Positions 5,215 through 51,953 of a DNA stretch of 64,000 bases are shown here, in pieces. A program made the translations under genes and the position numbers. The stretch lies in the IMG/VR virus record IMGVR_UViG_3300045988_007243. One strand, given 5' to 3'. Numbering within the stretch: position 1 is the first letter of the stretch; every line of letters begins with the position of its first letter. Source of the stretch: a virus. Taxonomy: Duplodnaviria; Heunggongvirae; Uroviricota; Caudoviricetes. Under the pieces are notes generated by a model, which ran no database searches, was not told the origin of the DNA, and worked only from the letters and a program-made list of their open reading frames with translations.

Positions 5215-5772
5215 GTGATAGATATGGAAAAAGATAACTTAAAAGAAGTTGAAGGTAACTACTTAGTACTTGACTGGAATGATATTCGTGGAGCACTCTA
5301 CGAAGAAAGCCTTAATAGGTTAGAACAAATTATCTTTGCAGTACGGGGTTACAGAGAGGTTCAAAATGGTAAAGAGCCACTTGAAGGAATCTTTGTAGAG
5401 AAGTCTTATCCGTTCTATGAAGACACTTTACAGAAAGTTAAAATGTACTTTAGACAGAAGAACCGTAAAGTGGTCACTATGGTATCTCTTGGTGGACAGA
5501 ATATGTCTGTGATGGAAGATATTAATCCTAAGAGACCGAGTAAAGGTATCTGTATAAAAATCACAGGACATGAAGAGTATATCTCAGTGGATGATTTTAG
5601 TTCATTCTGTAATGGCTCTTGTGTCTTTAATGGTTTTCACTATGATATCCGAGTGTACCCAATCAAGGGAGATGATATCATGATGCAGGTATTTGATAAC
5701 AACAACGGCTTTACTCATTTTTATCAGACAACCAAGTCATCACTAAAAACAGTTCTGGAAACACTGATTTAA
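5215..5772 (+). CDS. Hypothetical protein
   Basis: ORF, 185 aa; last gene of the plus-strand block. Confidence 0.5.
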   Translation: MIDMEKDNLKEVEGNYLVLDWNDIRGALYEESLNRLEQIIFAVRGYREVQNGKEPLEGIFVEKSYPFYEDTLQKVKMYFRQKNRKVVTMVSLGGQNMSVMEDINPKRPSKGICIKITGHEEYISVDDFSSFCNGSCVFNGFHYDIRVYPIKGDDIMMQVFDNNNGFTHFYQTTKSSLKTVLETLI

Positions 5773-5783
5773 AATATCTTAAG

Positions 5784-5808
5784 AGCCTCCTTAATTGGGG
5801 GCTTTTTT
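5784..5808 (+). terminator. Rho-independent terminator closing the plus-strand early operon
   Basis: AGCCTCC-TTAATT-GGGGGCT hairpin followed by TTTTTT. Confidence 0.65.
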
Positions 5809-5809
5809 A

Positions 5810-7436
5810 ATTTTTATAAAATTTTATCGGTTGTCCCAACCTCTGGGTCACCATCATATGTGAATAAAATATCTATCCTTCTTAGCAACCTTCTTAATCT
5901 TACTCTCTATATAGTTATATAGTACTATATAGTATCTTAGTAACTATCTAGTGGTCTTAATAGCCCTCTGTATAACCCTTCTAACAAGCCCTCTAACAAA
6001 CCTTCTTAACAACCTATACAATCACCTTAACCATCTCTCTACACCTTCTTAGAAGCCCCTATACACCTCTTAATCTCTATGTCAGCTATGATACCCTCTA
6101 TAGGTGTTCACTAGGAAATACTAAGCCTCTATATAGACTGTTTTAACAAACTTAACAGGAATATCTTTACAGACCTTATCTCACAAGGTCTAACACGGTA
6201 CTAACAAGGTATCTTATAAGCCTGTTTATGCCTGTATTTTTAAAAGACTGTATAGGTAATTATTCAGAATTTTAAAATTTTTATAAAATAGGACTATCAA
6301 GTCATTTTTTAGGGTCTTTGAAGGGACTCAAAAATATCTGATTAGGGTGTATATCTGCTTGGTAGCCCTTAACAGCTCCCTTACAAGTACTTTGCAAAAT
6401 TTTAAAATATCCTTAACAATCTCTTAACAGTTCTCACATCTTCTTAACAACTCTTCAAAGGTCTTAACAGATTCTTAACAGAACTAACAAGGCTGTAACA
6501 GTTTCTTAACAGTTGATACATAGGCTTTACAGAATCTTAACAGATGACTAATAAGAGCTAACAGGGATTGGTAGATGATTCGGATGAAGCATCCTCATAA
6601 CAATACCAATTAGTTAATTTTAAAGAGTTATTTTGTTAAGATAATTAACAAGTTTCTAACAAGTATTTAATCTTTTTAACAAGCTATTAACATGGTCACT
6701 ACTCTTTTCTTATCGTTCCCTCTCCCTCTTAGTGATTCTCTAAACATACCTCTTAAAAGCTCTCTATAGCTCTTTATAAGCCCTTTTAAGCCTCTTCCTA
6801 GTAATTACACCCCAACTGTACAGACACCTTTTTATAGAGCTTTACAGGAGCTTTTAAGGCTATGTCAAAGACTCTTACAAGGCTTTTACGTGGTTTTAAC
6901 AGAGATTTAACAAGGGGCTAACAAGTTGCTAACAAGTGCCTTAAAAGCATAACTATGTAGGGATTGTTAAGAATTTGTTAAGAAAATGTTAAGGGGGCTA
7001 GCATTTACGTAACTTTATAGCTTCTTTTACGTAACTTTGAAGCAACTTTATAGCCCCTATAACATACTTTTAAGACACTAACAATAGGATTCGATAGATT
7101 CCTATCTCATAGCCCTTTTTAGTAGTTCACAAGAATACTAACGAGATAATAAAGCTTATAACCTTATAAGATTCTTTTAAGCCTCTATAAAGCCCTGTAA
7201 AGAGCTTTTTAGGGTGAGTTAATGCAATCCCTTAAGTTATATTGATAAGGCTGTTATAGAGCTTTATAGAGCGTTTTAGTGGTTGCCCTTCCCTTTCGGG
7301 TTATGGGCTTATATTTAAGTTGATTTGATAAGAGGTTATAGAGTAAACTATAGAGTTATTGCTTTTAAGGTATGGGATAGATTCTGGAAAGGAAAGGGAA
7401 AGGATTGTATAGGGATTCGATAAGACGTAAAAAAGC
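5810..7436. repeat. ORF-free G-poor region with dense short iterons (CTTAACAG/CTAACAAG, CTCTATAG/CTTTATAG, CTTTTAAG families)
   Basis: No ORF of 60 aa or more in any frame over about 1.6 kb between convergent transcription units; more than 30 TAACA(A/G) words, locally phased about 10-11 bp (6400-6560); TTTACGTAACTTT twice near 7000. Confidence 0.6.
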
Positions 7437-7491
7437 CCCTATGAGAAGGAGCTTTGAAGGTATCTGGGGCTATTTAGCCCCGTTGCGTCGA
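7437..7491 (-). terminator. Terminator region at the end of the minus-strand early array
   Basis: GGGGCTAAATAGCCCC hairpin and a GGGGC followed by a U-run on the minus strand, just past the stop of 7492..7740. Confidence 0.45.
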
Positions 7492-7740
7492 TTAGTTGTA
7501 ACCTTGTTTATTGTAGTACAGTGAGATAATCAAGTCACCCCAGTAATGATAGTGATGCTCGTCGTTTAATGCCTCTTTTACAGCGTCTTTCCAGAAGTCA
7601 TCAGTAGGGTTATAATCTGGGATAACTTGCTTGATAACTGTCTTCACTAATGAAAAACACTCATCAGTTCCACCAATATCAAATTTAACGTCCAGAGTAT
7701 AACAGCCATAAGCATTGACAGTTGCGCGGATAGTTGCCAT
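7492..7740 (-). CDS. Hypothetical early protein
   Basis: ORF preceded by the conserved leader AACTAGGAGATTCAAAAATG. Confidence 0.55.
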   Translation of the reverse strand: MATIRATVNAYGCYTLDVKFDIGGTDECFSLVKTVIKQVIPDYNPTDDFWKDAVKEALNDEHHYHYWGDLIISLYYNKQGYN

Positions 7741-9566: not shown

Positions 9567-9652
9567 TTTTAGAATCTCCAGTTTAGGATTTAGTGGTAAA
9601 GCTCTTTATCTGAGGCTTAAGTTATCAACTTTTAAGCCCCTTGTAAAGTACT
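9567..9652 (-). promoter_or_regulatory. Early promoter-leader cassette, family B (TTTACA-N17-TAACTT overlapping inverted repeat GGGGCTTA-N13-TAAGCC)
   Basis: Conserved about 70-nt element shared with cassettes at 10365-10450, 11622-11710 and 12005-12090. Confidence 0.55.
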
Positions 9653-11621: not shown

Positions 11622-11710
11622 TTTAGAATCTCCTAGTTTAAGGTCTTTATTTGATAAAGCTCTTTATCTGGGGCTTAAGGTATCAGCTTTTAAGCCCCCT
11701 GTAAAGTACT
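11622..11710 (-). promoter_or_regulatory. Early promoter-leader cassette, family B
   Basis: Same conserved element as 9567-9652. Confidence 0.55.
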
Positions 11711-41949: not shown

Positions 41950-42750
41950 TTAGTGCAGTTGGTCAGCATACTCTTTTTCAGCCATAGCTGAGATTTGCTT
42001 CACAAAATCATCACCGAAGTTAATGCGTAGTTTCTCTTCAATGATTGAAGCACCAATGTTCACCAAAACATCATTGATTGCTTGCATACTAACGCCACCA
42101 GTCATCTCCTCAATGAACTCAATACTCACACCCATCATCTGTGAAAGTTGGATTAGTGCAACGATATTCATCATCGTAGAGATAGCTGGAATCATCAGTG
42201 CAACTTTCACCTGAAGTGGTTCTATATCAGCTACAGAGTCATTTTCAACAGCTTCTTCCAAAGACTCTTTAGTTTGCTGGATAATCTCCTTGATTCGTGG
42301 GTTTAGTTCTTCTACACCCCAATCAAGTTTTTCATATCGTGACAACTTCTCTTCCATTCGCTTCTCAAGAGCAGCCATAACAGCACTAGTTGATGAAATT
42401 AACAGGTCAATTAGTTCATCATTACCTGCGAGTAGTAGCAAGTCTTTTTCTTCAGTGGTCATGGCAATATAGTCATTTTTCTGCATCTCATAAAAAATGA
42501 ACTCTGCAAGGGCATCAACACCTACAACGATAGATGCTAAAGCAAGTGTTTTGTCGCAAAGCATCATGTTGACCTGTTCTGCAAAAGCACCGTTATCAGA
42601 CTTGTCTTCAGGCAAGTTATAGCTTGCAGGCATAAACTGTTCTGTGTAGTTGTTGCCACGAAGAATCATAGCCATGCTTTCTACGGCATTGATTAAGAAC
42701 GCTTCGTCAATACCTTTTTCTTCAAGCATCTTTTCTACATCGATATTCAT
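41950..42750 (-). CDS. Hypothetical protein
   Basis: ORF, 266 aa. Confidence 0.5.
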   Translation of the reverse strand: MNIDVEKMLEEKGIDEAFLINAVESMAMILRGNNYTEQFMPASYNLPEDKSDNGAFAEQVNMMLCDKTLALASIVVGVDALAEFIFYEMQKNDYIAMTTEEKDLLLLAGNDELIDLLISSTSAVMAALEKRMEEKLSRYEKLDWGVEELNPRIKEIIQQTKESLEEAVENDSVADIEPLQVKVALMIPAISTMMNIVALIQLSQMMGVSIEFIEEMTGGVSMQAINDVLVNIGASIIEEKLRINFGDDFVKQISAMAEKEYADQLH

Positions 42751-42751
42751 A

Positions 42752-43174
42752 TTATTTCTCTCTCAGTTGGTTAAGTTTCTTTCTAGAACATTTTAAGTTT
42801 TCGGATGAAGAAAAGTCAAGTGTCTTTTCAGAACGTGGATAATAGTGCCTATCCCAAGAAGTTTCAACATCGTTAATCAGTGACGCTAGATTACACAGGT
42901 CTGTACCACTTTGCAACCTCTTTTTAAGAGAATCTAGTAAAGCAACTGTGTCTTTAGCTTTACGTCTAGCTGTAGCAACATCTTTCATATGCTCAAATAC
43001 AGAGCATTTTAAGTCATCTTCATAGTTTTCAGACAACTCTATTTCATGTTGTATATCAACCATTCTCCTGTGATGGTGAGCATATTCCCGTTGAGCAGCA
43101 ATGTCAAGTTCTTCCAACTTCTGCAAAGCTCTAACAAAGTCAGCTATGTCTGGGTGAACAAACATTTTCTGCAT
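42752..43174 (-). CDS. Hypothetical protein
   Basis: ORF, 140 aa. Confidence 0.5.
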   Translation of the reverse strand: MQKMFVHPDIADFVRALQKLEELDIAAQREYAHHHRRMVDIQHEIELSENYEDDLKCSVFEHMKDVATARRKAKDTVALLDSLKKRLQSGTDLCNLASLINDVETSWDRHYYPRSEKTLDFSSSENLKCSRKKLNQLREK

Positions 43175-43431
43175 GTAAGCCTCTTTTAAGTAACTATTAA
43201 GTTTTAATCTTTTATCTTAACGTATTCTATACGTTATACTTTAAAGCTTTTTAAAAGCTATTAAATAATCTTTTAAGAGTTTTAAAGTATCTGTATAGTT
43301 AAACTGTTAAGTAACCTTTTAAGTAAAAACCCACTTCGCAAAGATTAACACCTTGTCAAGTACATTGTCAACTTGCTTTTTATAATTTTTTGCAGTAATG
43401 TATGAGGTTAATGATTTTAGAGGGAGTAAAA
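43175..43431. promoter_or_regulatory. Divergent intergenic control region (promoters for the DNA polymerase and the leftward operon)
   Basis: AT-rich, TTGTCA and TATAAT hexamers near 43350-43385, SD AGGGAG before ATG 43432; contains CTTTTAAG/CTGTTAAG words like the 5810-7436 region. Confidence 0.4.
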
Positions 43432-45574
43432 ATGGAAAACGTAGATTTTAAAAACTTACATTTAGTTGGTGATACAGAAACTGATGGTTTACTCCTTGAG
43501 TTCACTAAAGTGCACGTAATGGCTTTTGCAGACTATAAATCTGACGATGAAGAGCCACCTGTATGGGTCTTTACAGATGAGCCTATCCTCGGTCACAAGT
43601 ATACCAAGTACATCAAGGGCGGCTTACGTGAAGGTATTGAGTTTGCGTTAAAGGCAAAACGTCTTTGCATCCATAACGGTCTCGGTTATGACTGGTGGGT
43701 TTTCAATCACATTGCACCTGATTTATGGAACTTTGATAATCCAAAGTGTAAGCCGTGGAGTAATTTCTTTCAGGATTCTCTTATCCAGTCTCGTGTTCAG
43801 TGGATGGATAGGCCAACTCCAAAGGGTTATAAAGGTGCTCATGGTTTGGCTGCATGGGGTGCTCGTGTTGGTGTTCGTAAACCAGAGATTGAACATTGGG
43901 GTGTGTGGAATGCAGAAATCTTCACTCGTGTTGTAGAAGATATCCGTATTAACGCCAAAACTAAACGGGCACTTGATAACGAGTATCTCAAGCTTAAGAA
44001 GTGTGGTATAGACACTTATGAAACCTACATGCGAGCTAAAGAAACATCTTTCTGGATGAGTCAACAGGCTATCAATGGTTGGAAAGCTGATAAAGAACTT
44101 ATGGAGTTCCATGTAAAGGAACTTGACAAGTTGACTAATGAGCTTGCTTCAGAGGTTGAACCACATCTACCACCAACTATTAAGACCAAAGGTAAAGTAA
44201 CTGGTGAAGAGTTTGCAAAGGCTTGGAATGAGTATGTTGAAACATTTGGTCATGCAGATGGACTGAAGAGGATTACCAAGTACCCTAAAACAAAGTATCG
44301 TCAGCAGGTACGTAACGGTGAGATGCAGACATACGAAATCAAGCCATTTGGTAAGCCAACTACAAAGATTTTTAACATTGAAAAAAGGAATTGCTATACA
44401 CCAACCAACTCTGTAACTGGTGAAGAGTACAAGGAAGGCTTTGTAGCAATGAAGGATGCTCGTGCAATTTGCAATGAGTTGAACGCAAAGATTGGTAAGA
44501 AATGCAAAGACTGGAAGCCAGTAAAAACAGTCAAAACTGTGAAGTACTATAACAGCCACGTTGTTAACCACTTTGAACTTGAGTCAAGTCGCTACACAGG
44601 TTTGATTGATGCACCATATACACCAATTGAGTTTGAAGTTTCTCGTATGACTCAGGTAGCAGTTGTTAAAGACTACTTGAAATCAGTTGGTTGGATTCCA
44701 GATGACTGGAACTACAAGAAAGACTCTGATGGTCGCCCTGTCAAAGTTTGTCGTTTCAAAGACAATAAAAAGATGATTACAAAGCATCCTAAGTGGCAGG
44801 AAATGGTTGAGCGGTGTGGTTTGAGTTATGTTGAACACGAAGGCGTCCAGTACATTGAGCATAACTGGTCTGTGAAGAAGTACACAGATTTGCTTGAGCC
44901 TTGCTTAATCCGTACTTCACCAAAACTTACTGAATCATCTTACGATACGATTGAAGGTGAGCTTGGACAGAAGATTGCTAAATACTACACTTTGATGCAC
45001 CGACGCAGAACTATTGAGAACTCAAAGGATGATGAAAAAGGTTGGTTGAACCAGATTCGTCCTGATGGTCGCCTTAGTGCTGGTGCAATGGTGTTTGGTA
45101 CTTCAACTGGACGTATGACACAATATGGTATTGTAAACGTACCGTCTGGTGCTGCTGTCTATGGAGCACCTATGAGGGAGGTTTGGACTTGTGAAGAGGG
45201 TACTAATATTGTTTCAGCCGACATGAATAGCGCCCAACTTGTGCTACTGTGTAACTTTATGGGTGATAAAGATTTCACTAAAGCGGTGACAGAGGGTAAA
45301 GAAGAGGTTGAGTTTGTCAAACAAGAGGATGGTAGATACTATTGCAAACATTTTGACCAGTATCTAAACCCAGCTATTGACAAGTATTTACATTATGATT
45401 CTGAAAATGACTTATACGTGGTGTACTCAGGGACTGATGCACATACTTTGAATAGTATCTACTTCAGTCTTAATAAAGAGGAAGACATCTTGACATGTCG
45501 AGCTACTCAGGATACAAGTCTTCTTCAAGAAATTAGTAAAGGTCGTAAGAAAGCCAAAAATGGCATCTATGCGT
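43432..45574 (+). CDS. DNA polymerase, family A T7-like, exon 1 (3'-5' exonuclease and polymerase N-terminal part)
   Basis: Exo I motif VGDTETDGL near the N-terminus; ends inside motif B at ...RKKAKNGIYA; remainder of the track ORF (to 45615) is intron sequence. Confidence 0.75.
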
Positions 45575-51448: not shown

Positions 51449-51661
51449 ATGGCTCTTAAAAAGTTACATCCCAGAAGCGGTTATGGTAAGATAATTGACG
51501 ATACAGACGGCTTTACAGTCTTTACAGTTATCTGTCAAGATGATTCACAGATTGAAAAGGCTCTTGATGATTATCTTAACAATGAACGTGAAAAGGTTAG
51601 AGCTACAAACATAGATTCATTGATTGACACTTCACGCAAACGGAAGAAGAAAGATGAATGA
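51449..51661 (+). CDS. Hypothetical protein
   Basis: ORF, 70 aa. Confidence 0.4.
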   Translation: MALKKLHPRSGYGKIIDDTDGFTVFTVICQDDSQIEKALDDYLNNEREKVRATNIDSLIDTSRKRKKKDE

Positions 51662-51953
51662 GGTTTTTGACCCTTATGCCCCACAAGATGATTGGGAGGC
51701 TGATAGAGAGGCTGAAATGGAGAGTTATGTTTGTCCAATGGATGTAGACGAAATGAGAGACTTCGTTGCACATCGTTTTAAGAGAGAGATTAAATCCAGA
51801 GGTCTTTCTCAAGAGCAAGTTGCTAAAATTTGTGGTATCTCTCAGGCTCGTGTATCCAACATAATCAATCTCACTGGTAATGTCTCCCTTGAGTTTATGT
51901 TGGAAGTATGTGAAAAATTTGGTGTTAATTTTAATTTAAGGTTGGCAGATTAA
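51654..51953 (+). CDS. Helix-turn-helix transcriptional regulator (XRE-like)
   Basis: LSQEQVAKICGISQARVSNIIN HTH motif; start set at the ATG overlapping the upstream stop. Confidence 0.5.
   Translation: MNEVFDPYAPQDDWEADREAEMESYVCPMDVDEMRDFVAHRFKREIKSRGLSQEQVAKICGISQARVSNIINLTGNVSLEFMLEVCEKFGVNFNLRLAD

What the first reader, a model, noticed from the sequence alone, without database searches (positions are those of the whole stretch)
5810..7436. 1.6 kb ORF-free, strand-biased iteron field between convergent operons
No ORF of 60 aa or more exists in any frame. The plus strand is strongly G-depleted and built from recurring 8-mers: more than 30 copies of (C/T)TAACA(A/G), locally phased at about 10-11 bp (6400-6560, one helical turn), interspersed with CTCTATAG/CTTTATAG and CTTTTAAG words. 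A short inverted patch (TTGTTAAG x3, 6965-6995) and two TTTACGTAACTTT palindromic boxes (near 7000 and 7035) also occur. Helically phased iterons suggest cooperative protein binding on one DNA face, as at replication origins, partition sites or packaging sites. The same words recur in the divergent control region upstream of the DNA polymerase (43175-43431).
Basis: seen in the sequence. Interest (0 to 1): 0.65.

Follow-up and report, generated by a model that had tools for sequence, protein, structure and literature searches.

The report
Felix O1-type phage genome-end repeat region
This gene-free 1.7 kb stretch is where the linear chromosome of a Felix O1-like phage begins and ends: a roughly 640-bp direct terminal repeat plus its flanks.

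Summary
Window 5773-7491 is intergenic. YTAACAR occurs 24 times on the + strand against 1.1 expected (0 of 1000 shuffles reach it). The main array (6414-6559) is phased at 10.35 bp.

The window is a Felixounavirus. Physical genome ends known from relatives fall inside the field: experimental ends for UAB_Phi87, an annotated DTR in UAB_69, and exact 581-bp end repeats in Pr103Blw and D4. These map the direct terminal repeat (DTR) to window 6359/6361-6998/7000.

Both DTR boundaries read inward as TGC|T(T/A)|G..CCCTTAACA. Word arrays run inward from both boundaries in opposite orientations. The boundaries, the words and their spacing signature (11, 20, 20, 11, 9, 11, 11) are conserved in Mooglevirus and Kolesnikvirus, and the words are conserved better than the spacers.

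Best reading: this is the concatemer junction, and the phased words are recognition or architectural sites for the packaging machinery that makes the two site-specific cuts. T7 has an analogous array (CCTAAAG, 13-bp spacing). Nothing supports an origin, a partition site or an RNA. The locus identity is already known; the array architecture appears undescribed. Interest is moderate to low.

The parts
5781..5806 (+). Intrinsic terminator closing the + strand operon (last gene ends at 5772)
   Evidence: Terminator scan. Hairpin of -15.2 kcal/mol, z = -3.25, followed by a U-run.
5773..6360 (+). Left flank: unique non-coding DNA next to the DTR. It is G-poor on the + strand and holds + oriented words (7 TAACA, 6 CTCTA) in short period 10-12 arrays.
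   Evidence: Arrays lie at 5907-5952, 5977-6012 (CCTTCTAACAAA, 2.9 copies) and 6183-6211.
6233..6312 (.). AT-rich tract (82-83% A+T) with an overlapping palindrome at 6257-6290, just outside the left DTR boundary
   Evidence: (repeat I15).
6348..6360 (+). Conserved box TGTATATCTGCTT abutting the left cut site. It is identical in Felixounavirus, Mooglevirus and Kolesnikvirus phage SE5.
   Evidence: It was used as the anchor that retrieved 22 Ounavirinae loci.
6361..6998 (.). Direct terminal repeat, present once here as in a concatemer junction or collapsed assembly. The boundaries are 6361/6998 from records with an exact repeat at both ends, and 6359/7000 from the UAB_69 annotation and M7 homology.
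   Evidence: UAB_69 DTR; Pr103Blw and D4, exact 581-bp end repeats; literature; M7, 444-bp DTR at homologous positions.
6412..6563 (+). Main helically phased array of CTTAACAG-type words: 10 exact TAACA cores plus variants, with period about 10.4-11 bp
   Evidence: The spacing signature is conserved in three genera.
6564..6611 (.). 48-bp nested-palindrome indel in the DTR centre, a variable segment absent from most relatives
   Evidence: only 23% identity to the window across close relatives in the 60-bp bin from 6553.
6897..6934 (+). Four direct TAACA words at exact 11-bp spacing, near the right end of the DTR
6964..6993 (-). Three inverted words (TTGTTAAG, TTGTTAAG, ATGTTAAG) at 11-bp spacing, ending 5 bp before the right cut site
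   Evidence: Three words in Felixounavirus (two in warpig); in Mooglevirus and Kolesnikvirus the last word is a TGTAA variant.
6999..7491 (-). Right flank: unique non-coding DNA next to the DTR. It is G-rich on the + strand, and CTCTA-type words lie mostly on the - strand, so they point toward the DTR.
7004..7049 (+). 22-bp tandem duplication carrying the two TTACGTAA palindromes. Of the relatives displayed, only the window has the second box; UAB_69, nataliec and warpig have one.
7426..7455 (-). Terminator-like hairpin plus U-run closing the - strand operon (last gene is 7492-7740)
   Evidence: Fold (-13.2 kcal/mol, z = -3.05). The scan did not call it. Relatives' records annotate terminators here.

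Best explanation
The field is the genome-end (concatemer-junction) region of a Felix O1-like myovirus.

- Bases ~6360-6999 are the short exact direct terminal repeat (DTR). It is present at both ends of virion DNA and once between genome units in replicating concatemers, as in this assembly.
- The 590-bp left flank and 490-bp right flank are the unique non-coding DNA just inside each virion end.
- The phased TAACA-type words are proposed to be the recognition and architectural sites of the packaging machinery. One word sits at a fixed short offset inside each cut site, in opposite orientation at the two boundaries. Helically phased arrays (10 or more words at the left, 4 direct plus 3 inverted at the right) would let an oligomeric protein bind one DNA face or wrap the DNA.
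- That would position two site-specific cuts on opposite strands about 640 bp apart. Strand-displacement synthesis would then duplicate the repeat, following the T7 paradigm.

Shown here by homology to mapped ends: the DTR location and its boundaries. Shown statistically: the non-random count, phasing and conservation of the words. Inferred: protein binding, the identity of the binding protein, and the cutting mechanism.
For: - **Identity.** 257 Felixounavirus-type records match the region at up to 93% identity.
- **DTR mapping.**
  - The UAB_69 record annotates a 618-bp DTR that maps to 6359-7000.
  - UAB_Phi87 ends were determined by Bal31 digestion and run-off sequencing, giving a 608-bp DTR (PMC4837284).
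  - Pr103Blw has a 581-bp DTR by PhageTerm (PMC8303462).
  - Pr103Blw and D4 carry exact 581-bp repeats at both record ends, and these map to 6998 and 6361.
  - In another genus, M7 has an exact 444-bp DTR whose ends fall at the homologous positions, and about ten further Kolesnikvirus records start or stop there.
- **Cut-site symmetry.** The left boundary reads ..cTGC|TT|GGTAGCCCTTAACA on the + strand. The right boundary reads ..aTGC|TA|GCCCCCTTAACA on the - strand. Arrays run inward from both.
- **Selection.**
  - The words and their spacing signature 11, 20, 20, 11, 9, 11, 11 are kept in Mooglevirus and Kolesnikvirus. The only blastn match between the window and Kolesnikvirus genomes is a 75-85-bp stretch covering the array.
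  - Word columns are more conserved than other non-coding columns at three divergence levels: 0.944 vs 0.865, 0.840 vs 0.693 and 0.594 vs 0.424 (p = 0.01, 0.009, 0.0005).
  - The DTR centre tolerates indels while both ends are conserved.
- **Precedent.**
  - T7's 160-bp DTR and adjacent DNA carry 11 strand-specific CCTAAAG words, mostly 13 bp apart.
  - Insertions at T7 positions 142 and 162, at the terminal-repeat edge, are deleterious (bioRxiv 10.1101/2024.10.10.617714).
  - Cobavirus DTRs have a conserved G+C-rich 5' end proposed as an enzyme-binding site (PMC6775973).
Against: - No reads or virion DNA of this particular phage were available, so its ends are inferred by homology. The boundary motifs are, however, identical to those of the relatives.
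- No protein binding was tested.
- No small terminase is recognisable in the genus. In Bas63, TerL is preceded only by a 66-aa protein of unknown function. The terminase genes lie outside this window.
- Seven TAACA words and many other phased words lie outside the DTR, far from either cut, so their role is not explained by cut-site recognition alone.
- The two sets of boundary calls differ by 2 nt at each end, so the exact cut chemistry is unknown.
- To my knowledge, the function of T7's analogous arrays has never been firmly established, so the analogy does not prove function.
Confidence: 0.6

Rival explanations
1. Replication origin. The TAACA words are iterons for an initiator protein, and the adjacent AT-rich tract (6233-6312) is the unwinding element. 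The coincidence with the DTR is secondary, or the element has both roles.
For: - Direct, helically phased repeats lie next to tracts of 82-83% A+T.
- The palindromic AT-rich segment 6257-6290 sits next to the left boundary.
- The origin of these phages is unknown, and the reading is not mutually exclusive with packaging.
Against: - The words are 7-9 bp at one-turn spacing, not 17-22 bp iterons.
- There are no DnaA boxes within the arrays (one at 5859 only) and no IHF consensus.
- No initiator-like gene is adjacent; the flanking genes have no domains.
- Cumulative GC skew has a local maximum here and its minimum at ~43-44 kb, although skew follows transcription direction in phages.
- An origin model does not explain the orientation switch of the words exactly at the right DTR boundary, or their fixed offset from both cut sites in three genera.
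Confidence: 0.12
2. The arrays bind a non-terminase protein that acts on the genome ends. Possible roles are protecting the entering or replicating linear ends from host exonucleases, anchoring the last-packaged and first-ejected end in the portal or tail, or synapsing the repeats to form concatemers.
For: - The arrays lie within about 1.2 kb of both virion ends, and both ends are gene-free.
- The word fields on the two flanks point toward the DTR.
- The conserved phasing implies a cooperative binder, but says nothing about which protein it is.
Against: - No candidate protein was identified. The syntenic 82-aa neighbour has no domain hit, only a moderately confident model (pLDDT 69) and no fold match.
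- There is no Chi site.
- The model does not by itself explain why a word sits at a fixed offset, in inverted orientation, at each cut site.
Confidence: 0.12
3. A transcription-related element: arrays of sigma-70 -35-like hexamers (TTAACA vs TTGACA) acting as a polymerase or regulator sink, operator arrays for the phage HTH regulator, or a long non-coding RNA.
For: - TTAACA matches 5 of 6 positions of the -35 consensus, and several weak promoter-like matches (9 of 12) use it.
- An HTH regulator is encoded at 51654-51953.
Against: - Twelve promoter-like sites were found vs 7.6 +/- 2.4 in shuffles. Inside the field the sites score only 9 of 12, and there is no TATAAT there.
- Both flanking operons end in terminators before the field.
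- No Rfam family reaches threshold.
- Folding of either DTR strand is only marginally better than shuffles (z = -1.6 and -2.0) and is explained by the inverted word arrays.
- TAACA arrays occur nowhere else in the window, including promoter regions.
Confidence: 0.05
4. Functionless low-complexity DNA. Replication slippage in a gene-free spacer generated short tandem words that are simply tolerated.
For: Indels and lineage-specific duplications do occur in the field: the 48-bp indel at 6564-6611 and the 22-bp duplication at 7004-7049.
Against: - The words are more conserved than the spacers.
- The spacing signature is retained across three genera with otherwise diverged sequence.
- Slippage does not predict helical phasing at 10.35 bp or the orientation switch at the boundary.
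Confidence: 0.03

Closest known systems
Phage T7 terminal repetition with its flanking short-repeat arrays (called SRL and SRR by Dunn and Studier 1983; those names are from memory)
   Same: A short exact DTR lies in non-coding DNA. A strand-specific 7-bp word is repeated many times inside and beside the DTR (CCTAAAG, 11 copies in the first 420 bp). Concatemers carry one copy, and the second copy is made during packaging (PMC10438801).
   Different: The word differs (TAACA vs CCTAAAG) and so does the period (10.4-11 bp vs mostly 13 bp). The DTR is four times longer. The words are inverted at one boundary. Both flanking operons are transcribed toward the ends, with no early promoters in the terminal region. 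The host virion is a myovirus with an unrelated capsid and tail module and no recognisable TerS.
Phage P1 pac site: clusters of hexamer repeats flanking the cleavage site (from general knowledge)
   Same: Short repeated words are clustered on both sides of a terminase cleavage position.
   Different: P1 packages by headful and gives permuted, terminally redundant ends, and its sites are regulated by Dam methylation. Here the ends are exact and GATC is entirely absent from the window.
Lambda cosB: R1-R3 small-terminase binding elements plus an IHF site (from general knowledge)
   Same: Repeated protein-binding elements lie next to a terminase nicking site and organise a bent nucleoprotein complex.
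   Different: Lambda has three 16-bp elements and cohesive 12-nt ends. Here there are more than 20 words of 7-9 bp, two cut sites 640 bp apart, and no IHF consensus.
Plasmid R1 parC centromere: ten 11-bp direct repeats bound cooperatively by ParR (from general knowledge)
   Same: As a physical analogy only: many short direct repeats at one-helical-turn spacing form a continuous protein-coated scaffold.
   Different: There are no par genes here, the phage is lytic, and the element coincides with genome termini.
Annotated or published DTRs of Felixounavirus and Kolesnikvirus phages (UAB_Phi87, UAB_69, Pr103Blw, M7)
   Same: This is the same locus. The boundaries are identical in sequence and the overall similarity is 88-93%.
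   Different: Those reports give only the DTR length and position. None of the papers read here describes the word arrays, their phasing or the inverted boundary motif.

Membership tests
Short exact direct terminal repeat (DTR) region of site-specifically cutting phages | The same sequence is present at both physical ends of virion DNA, and once per unit in a concatemer or collapsed assembly | tested here: met
   Met by homology. Exact 581-bp repeats at both ends of Pr103Blw and D4 map to 6361-6998. The UAB_69 annotated DTR maps to 6359-7000. There is experimental proof for UAB_Phi87. The window holds a single copy. This was not tested on this phage's own virion DNA.
Short exact direct terminal repeat (DTR) region of site-specifically cutting phages | Ends are fixed at specific sequences and are not permuted | tested here: met
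   Independent records in two genera start or stop within 2-3 nt of the same homologous positions. The boundary motifs are conserved.
Short exact direct terminal repeat (DTR) region of site-specifically cutting phages | The large terminase belongs to a DTR-type clade | not tested
   TerL lies outside the window. Bardina et al. place the UAB_Phi87 TerL in a Felix O1-like DTR cluster (PMC4837284).
T7-type short-repeat arrays beside the terminal repeat | A strand-specific short word is repeated many times within and adjacent to the DTR | tested here: met
   Window: 29 TAACA on the + strand and 5 on the - strand. T7: 11 CCTAAAG in the first 420 bp.
T7-type short-repeat arrays beside the terminal repeat | Sequence homology: the same word and the same period | tested here: not met
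   TAACA at 10.4-11 bp vs CCTAAAG at mostly 13 bp. This is analogy, not homology.
Iteron-type replication origin | Direct repeats of about 17-22 bp with an adjacent initiator gene | tested here: not met
   The words are 7-9 bp at one-turn spacing. The flanking genes have no domain or known function.
Iteron-type replication origin | An AT-rich unwinding element, with DnaA or IHF sites | tested here: inconclusive
   AT-rich tracts are present at 6233-6312 and 6613-6692. However, there is no DnaA box in the arrays and no IHF consensus.
Iteron-type replication origin | A minimum of cumulative GC skew, or a replication-dependent copy-number peak | tested here: not met
   There is a local maximum here and the minimum lies at 42-44 kb. 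Copy-number profiling is not testable with these tools.
Headful pac site (P1 or P22 type) | Permuted, terminally redundant ends generated by headful cutting | tested here: not met
   Relatives have exact, non-permuted repeats.
Partition centromere (parC or parS) | Adjacent parA/parM and parB/parR genes on a stably maintained replicon | tested here: not met
   The neighbouring genes have no Pfam domains and belong only to PHROGs of unknown function. This is a virulent phage.
Structured non-coding RNA | An Rfam match, or folding significantly more stable than shuffles with its own promoter | tested here: not met
   No hit reaches threshold. Fold z-scores are -1.6 and -2.0. There is no convincing promoter.

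The most novel reading that the evidence does not exclude
The phased word arrays are not simple terminase-recognition sites. Instead they form a centromere-like nucleoprotein scaffold. A still-unidentified phage protein would polymerise along one DNA face from both DTR edges. This filament would act as a molecular ruler that sets the two cut sites and hence the DTR length, and possibly also synapses genome ends or serves as the replication origin. The lineage has no recognisable small terminase, so this would be a new mode of end definition for DTR myoviruses.
Probability: 0.15. Interest if true: 0.6.

Novelty: new member of a known kind. Interest (0 to 1): 0.35.

Why it matters
How terminases of phages with short exact terminal repeats find and make their two cuts is poorly understood outside T7 and T3. 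Felix O1-like phages are widely used for Salmonella and E. coli typing, biocontrol and therapy.

This analysis pins the cut sites to a conserved inverted motif. It also shows that helically phased words, conserved over three genera, adjoin those sites. That gives a concrete, mutable target for identifying the missing DNA-recognition subunit. It would also help with engineering packaging signals and with fixing the start coordinate of the many Ounavirinae genome records that are currently opened arbitrarily. It does not reveal a new kind of system.

Tried and rejected
- **Rfam** on 5600-7700 at E up to 1: only sub-threshold hits on the terminator hairpin.
- **Promoter scan**: no convincing promoter.
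- **RNA folding of both DTR strands**: marginal z-scores.
- **Reader-protein search**:
  - PHROGs and Pfam on seven flanking genes gave only families of unknown function or nothing.
  - An AlphaFold model of the syntenic 82-aa neighbour (7492-7740) reached only pLDDT 69, and Foldseek against the PDB gave no match better than E = 0.25. This lead was dropped.
- **Terminase genes**: not in the window. In Bas63 no TerS is annotated, and the 66-aa gene upstream of TerL has unknown function.
- **Second word family as inverted TAACA sites**: a PWM test of whether CTTTTAAG/CTYTATAG are degenerate inverted TAACA words gave only weak scores of 4.8-5.1 bits. I do not rely on it.
- **Host-factor motifs**: DnaA, IHF, Chi and GATC gave nothing supporting an origin or end protection.
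- **Literature**:
  - Searches for T7 SRL/SRR and for a Felix O1 transcriptome returned nothing usable. The T7 analogy was therefore checked directly on the T7 record.
  - The Bas63 knockout study reports no intergenic data for this region.
- **Viral-contig scan** with the boundary anchor: mostly chance hits, of which 22 loci were true Ounavirinae junctions.
Full report
**Observation**

The stretch between the stop codon of the + strand gene 5215-5772 and the stop codon of the - strand gene 7492-7740 is intergenic, spanning 5773-7491. The longest ORFs overlapping it are 31-39 aa. Both operons end in hairpin-plus-U-run terminators, at 5781-5806 on the + strand and about 7426-7455 on the - strand.

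A thousand dinucleotide-preserving shuffles give 1.08 +/- 1.03, with a maximum of 5. The density is 33 times that of the rest of the window. CTYTATAG (5 vs 0.27 expected) and CTTTTAAG (5 vs 0.19) are also enriched.

Phasing is real. Ten TAACA cores at 6414-6559 are coherent at a 10.35-bp period (R = 0.945, p < 2e-4), and adjacent spacings are almost all 9-13 or 19-21 bp. Tandem Repeats Finder independently reports a period-11 array of 12.9 copies at 6412-6545. It also finds nine other loci of short arrays with period 10-12 and different words, across the whole field.

- 'More than 30' copies is an overcount.
- G depletion of the + strand holds for the left flank and the central part, but reverses in the right flank.
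- The inverted patch is two TTGTTAAG plus one ATGTTAAG, at 6964, 6975 and 6986. The TTTACGTAACTTT boxes are at 7004 and 7026.
- The claimed recurrence at 43175-43431 concerns only CTTTTAAG. That word is a general intergenic word of this genome: 14 of its 22 copies lie in the 12.5% of the window that is non-coding.

**What the locus is**

The window is a Felixounavirus. 257 phage records match the region, the best at 93% identity.

The record of Salmonella phage UAB_69 annotates a 618-bp DTR inside the homologous gap, and it maps to window 6359-7000. The same laboratory determined the ends of the sister phage UAB_Phi87 experimentally, using Bal31 sensitivity of two restriction fragments and sequencing run-off, and found a 608-bp DTR (PMC4837284).

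Phage Pr103Blw has a 581-bp DTR by PhageTerm (PMC8303462). Its record and that of phage D4 carry exact 581-bp repeats at both ends. The physical ends of those records map to window 6998 and 6361. The window's version is 638 bp because of a 48-bp indel at 6564-6611.

The original Felix O1 paper only inferred short terminal repeats from the genome size (PMC3185647).

The field therefore has three parts. It consists of the collapsed DTR, the unique non-coding DNA inside the right virion end (window 5773-6360) and the unique non-coding DNA inside the left virion end (6999-7491). Both neighbouring operons are transcribed toward the genome ends.

**Relation of the words to the ends**

On the + strand the left boundary reads gtatatcTGC|TT|GGTAGCCCTTAACA. 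On the - strand the right boundary reads gtaaaTGC|TA|GCCCCCTTAACA. The two bars mark the two sets of boundary calls, which differ by 2 nt.

The two cut sites therefore share an inverted motif, with a TAACA word 6-10 nt inside each end. From the left boundary a long + oriented phased array runs inward. At the right boundary there are four + oriented words (6897-6934), followed by three inverted words (6964-6993) that end 5 bp before the cut.

CTCTA-type words in the two flanks also point toward the DTR: 6 on + and 0 on - in the left flank, versus 1 on + and 4 on - in the right flank.

**Conservation**

Mooglevirus (Michonne, Sf16) and Kolesnikvirus (SE5, Hena2) have the same gene-free gap between convergent operons. 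TAACA density in their gaps is 14-23 per kb, against about 2-2.6 per kb outside. They show the same spacing signature (...11, 20, 20, 11, 9, 11, 11...).

The only blastn match between the window and Kolesnikvirus genomes is a 75-85-bp stretch covering the array itself.

The box TGTATATCTGCTT next to the left cut is identical in all three genera. The three inverted words next to the right cut are kept in all three genera, the last as a TGTAA variant in Mooglevirus and Kolesnikvirus.

In a 19-sequence alignment built from GenBank loci and IMG/VR loci, word columns are more conserved than the other non-coding columns at three divergence levels (circular-shift test):

| Comparison group | Word columns | Other columns | p |
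|---|---|---|---|
| Close Felixounavirus | 0.944 | 0.865 | 0.01 |
| Mooglevirus-like | 0.840 | 0.693 | 0.009 |
| Kolesnikvirus SE5 | 0.594 | 0.424 | 0.0005 |

As an independent test in another genus, Erwinia phage M7 has an exact 444-bp DTR whose ends fall at the homologous positions. About ten further Kolesnikvirus records start or stop within 3 nt of them.

**Mechanism**

Established knowledge for short-DTR phages is that concatemers carry one copy of the repeat, terminase cuts at specific sites, and the second copy is synthesised (summarised in PMC10438801, and PMC6775973).

I infer that the boundary words and the phased arrays are the recognition and architectural elements for that reaction. 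An oligomeric DNA-binding component would occupy one face of the helix, or wrap the DNA, and position two nicks on opposite strands about 640 bp apart. The variable DTR centre would act as a spacer.

The protein is unknown. Terminase genes are outside the window. Bas63 annotates TerL but no TerS, and only a 66-aa protein of unknown function precedes TerL. The genes flanking the field have no domains. A model of the syntenic 82-aa neighbour was uninformative.

**Rivals**

- **Replication origin.** It cannot be excluded, but it lacks support. The words are short rather than 17-22-bp iterons. There are no DnaA boxes in the arrays and no IHF consensus. No initiator gene is adjacent. Cumulative GC skew has a local maximum here and its minimum near 43-44 kb. 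An origin model also does not predict the orientation switch at the cut site.
- **A non-terminase end-binding protein.** Roles in end protection, ejection or synapsis fit the phasing equally well but have no independent support.
- **Transcriptional or RNA roles.** These are disfavoured by the terminators, the lack of promoters, the absence of Rfam hits and the marginal folding.
- **Neutral slippage.** This is disfavoured by the conservation pattern.

**Comparison with known systems**

The closest analogue is T7. Its 160-bp DTR and adjacent DNA contain 11 strand-specific CCTAAAG words in the first 420 bp, mostly 13 bp apart, with further copies inside the right end. Insertions at the edge of the T7 repeat are deleterious.

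The present arrays differ in word, period, inverted arrangement and DTR length, so this is analogy rather than homology. P1 pac, lambda cosB and the R1 parC centromere are functional or physical analogies recalled from general knowledge.

**Verdict**

The locus identity (the Felixounavirus DTR) is already known and annotated in some records. The conserved, helically phased word architecture and the inverted cut-site motif were not described in any paper I could read. They amount to a new, well-supported member of a known kind of element. Interest is moderate to low.

Noticed in passing
window 1-64000: GATC is completely absent from the 64-kb window: 0 observed vs about 225 expected by base composition or a second-order Markov model. 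No other 4-bp palindrome comes close (GGCC 22 vs 53, CCGG 14 vs 33). This implies complete counter-selection of the Dam/MboI-type site.
   Followed up: partly
window 6783, 6851, 7067, 7174, 7362, 8193, 9629, 11687, 17122, 23077, 38657, 43183, 43270, 43316: CTTTTAAG is a strand-biased (22 on +, 5 on -) and strongly intergenic word: 14 of its 22 copies lie in the 12.5% of the window that is non-coding. It often sits inside small GGGGCTTTTAAGCCCC-type hairpins. It may be part of a genome-wide regulatory or terminator motif unrelated to the DTR.
   Followed up: partly
window 9615-9650 and 11673-11708: A near-identical intergenic element (ggcttaagKtatcaRCTTTTAAGcccc..tgtaaagtac) recurs twice in the - strand operon. 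It resembles, in reverse complement, the 57-bp direct repeat reported between Felix O1 genes 15/16 and 19/20 (PMC3185647).
   Followed up: no
window 6564-6611: A 48-bp nested-palindrome segment (ATTGGTA..GGATG aag CATCC..TACCAAT) lies inside the DTR. It is a presence/absence polymorphism: the alignment is split at this segment in most relatives, but is continuous across it in UAB_Phi87, EC106 and heid.
   Followed up: partly
window 7004-7049: A 22-bp tandem duplication creates the second TTACGTAA palindrome. Of the relatives displayed, only the window has the second box; UAB_69, nataliec and warpig have one. In Mooglevirus the sequence is not palindromic, so the palindromic boxes are probably not a conserved functional feature.
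   Followed up: yes
window ~42000-44000 (divergent region 43175-43401 upstream of the DNA polymerase gene): The global minimum of cumulative GC skew in the window lies here, at a divergent promoter region. It is a candidate replication origin by the usual skew reading, although it is confounded by the switch in transcription direction.
   Followed up: no
L136 (Bas63, MZ501086.1) 1-1824: No small terminase subunit is annotated or recognisable in this genus. TerL (phrog_979) is preceded only by a 66-aa protein of unknown function (phrog_4397) and the tRNA cluster.
   Followed up: partly
GenBank records of Ounavirinae: Most deposited genomes of this subfamily are opened at arbitrary points, with the DTR collapsed in the middle of the record. 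Several annotate tiny 'hypothetical protein' ORFs (25-49 aa) across the DTR, which the word-versus-spacer conservation pattern argues are spurious.
   Followed up: partly
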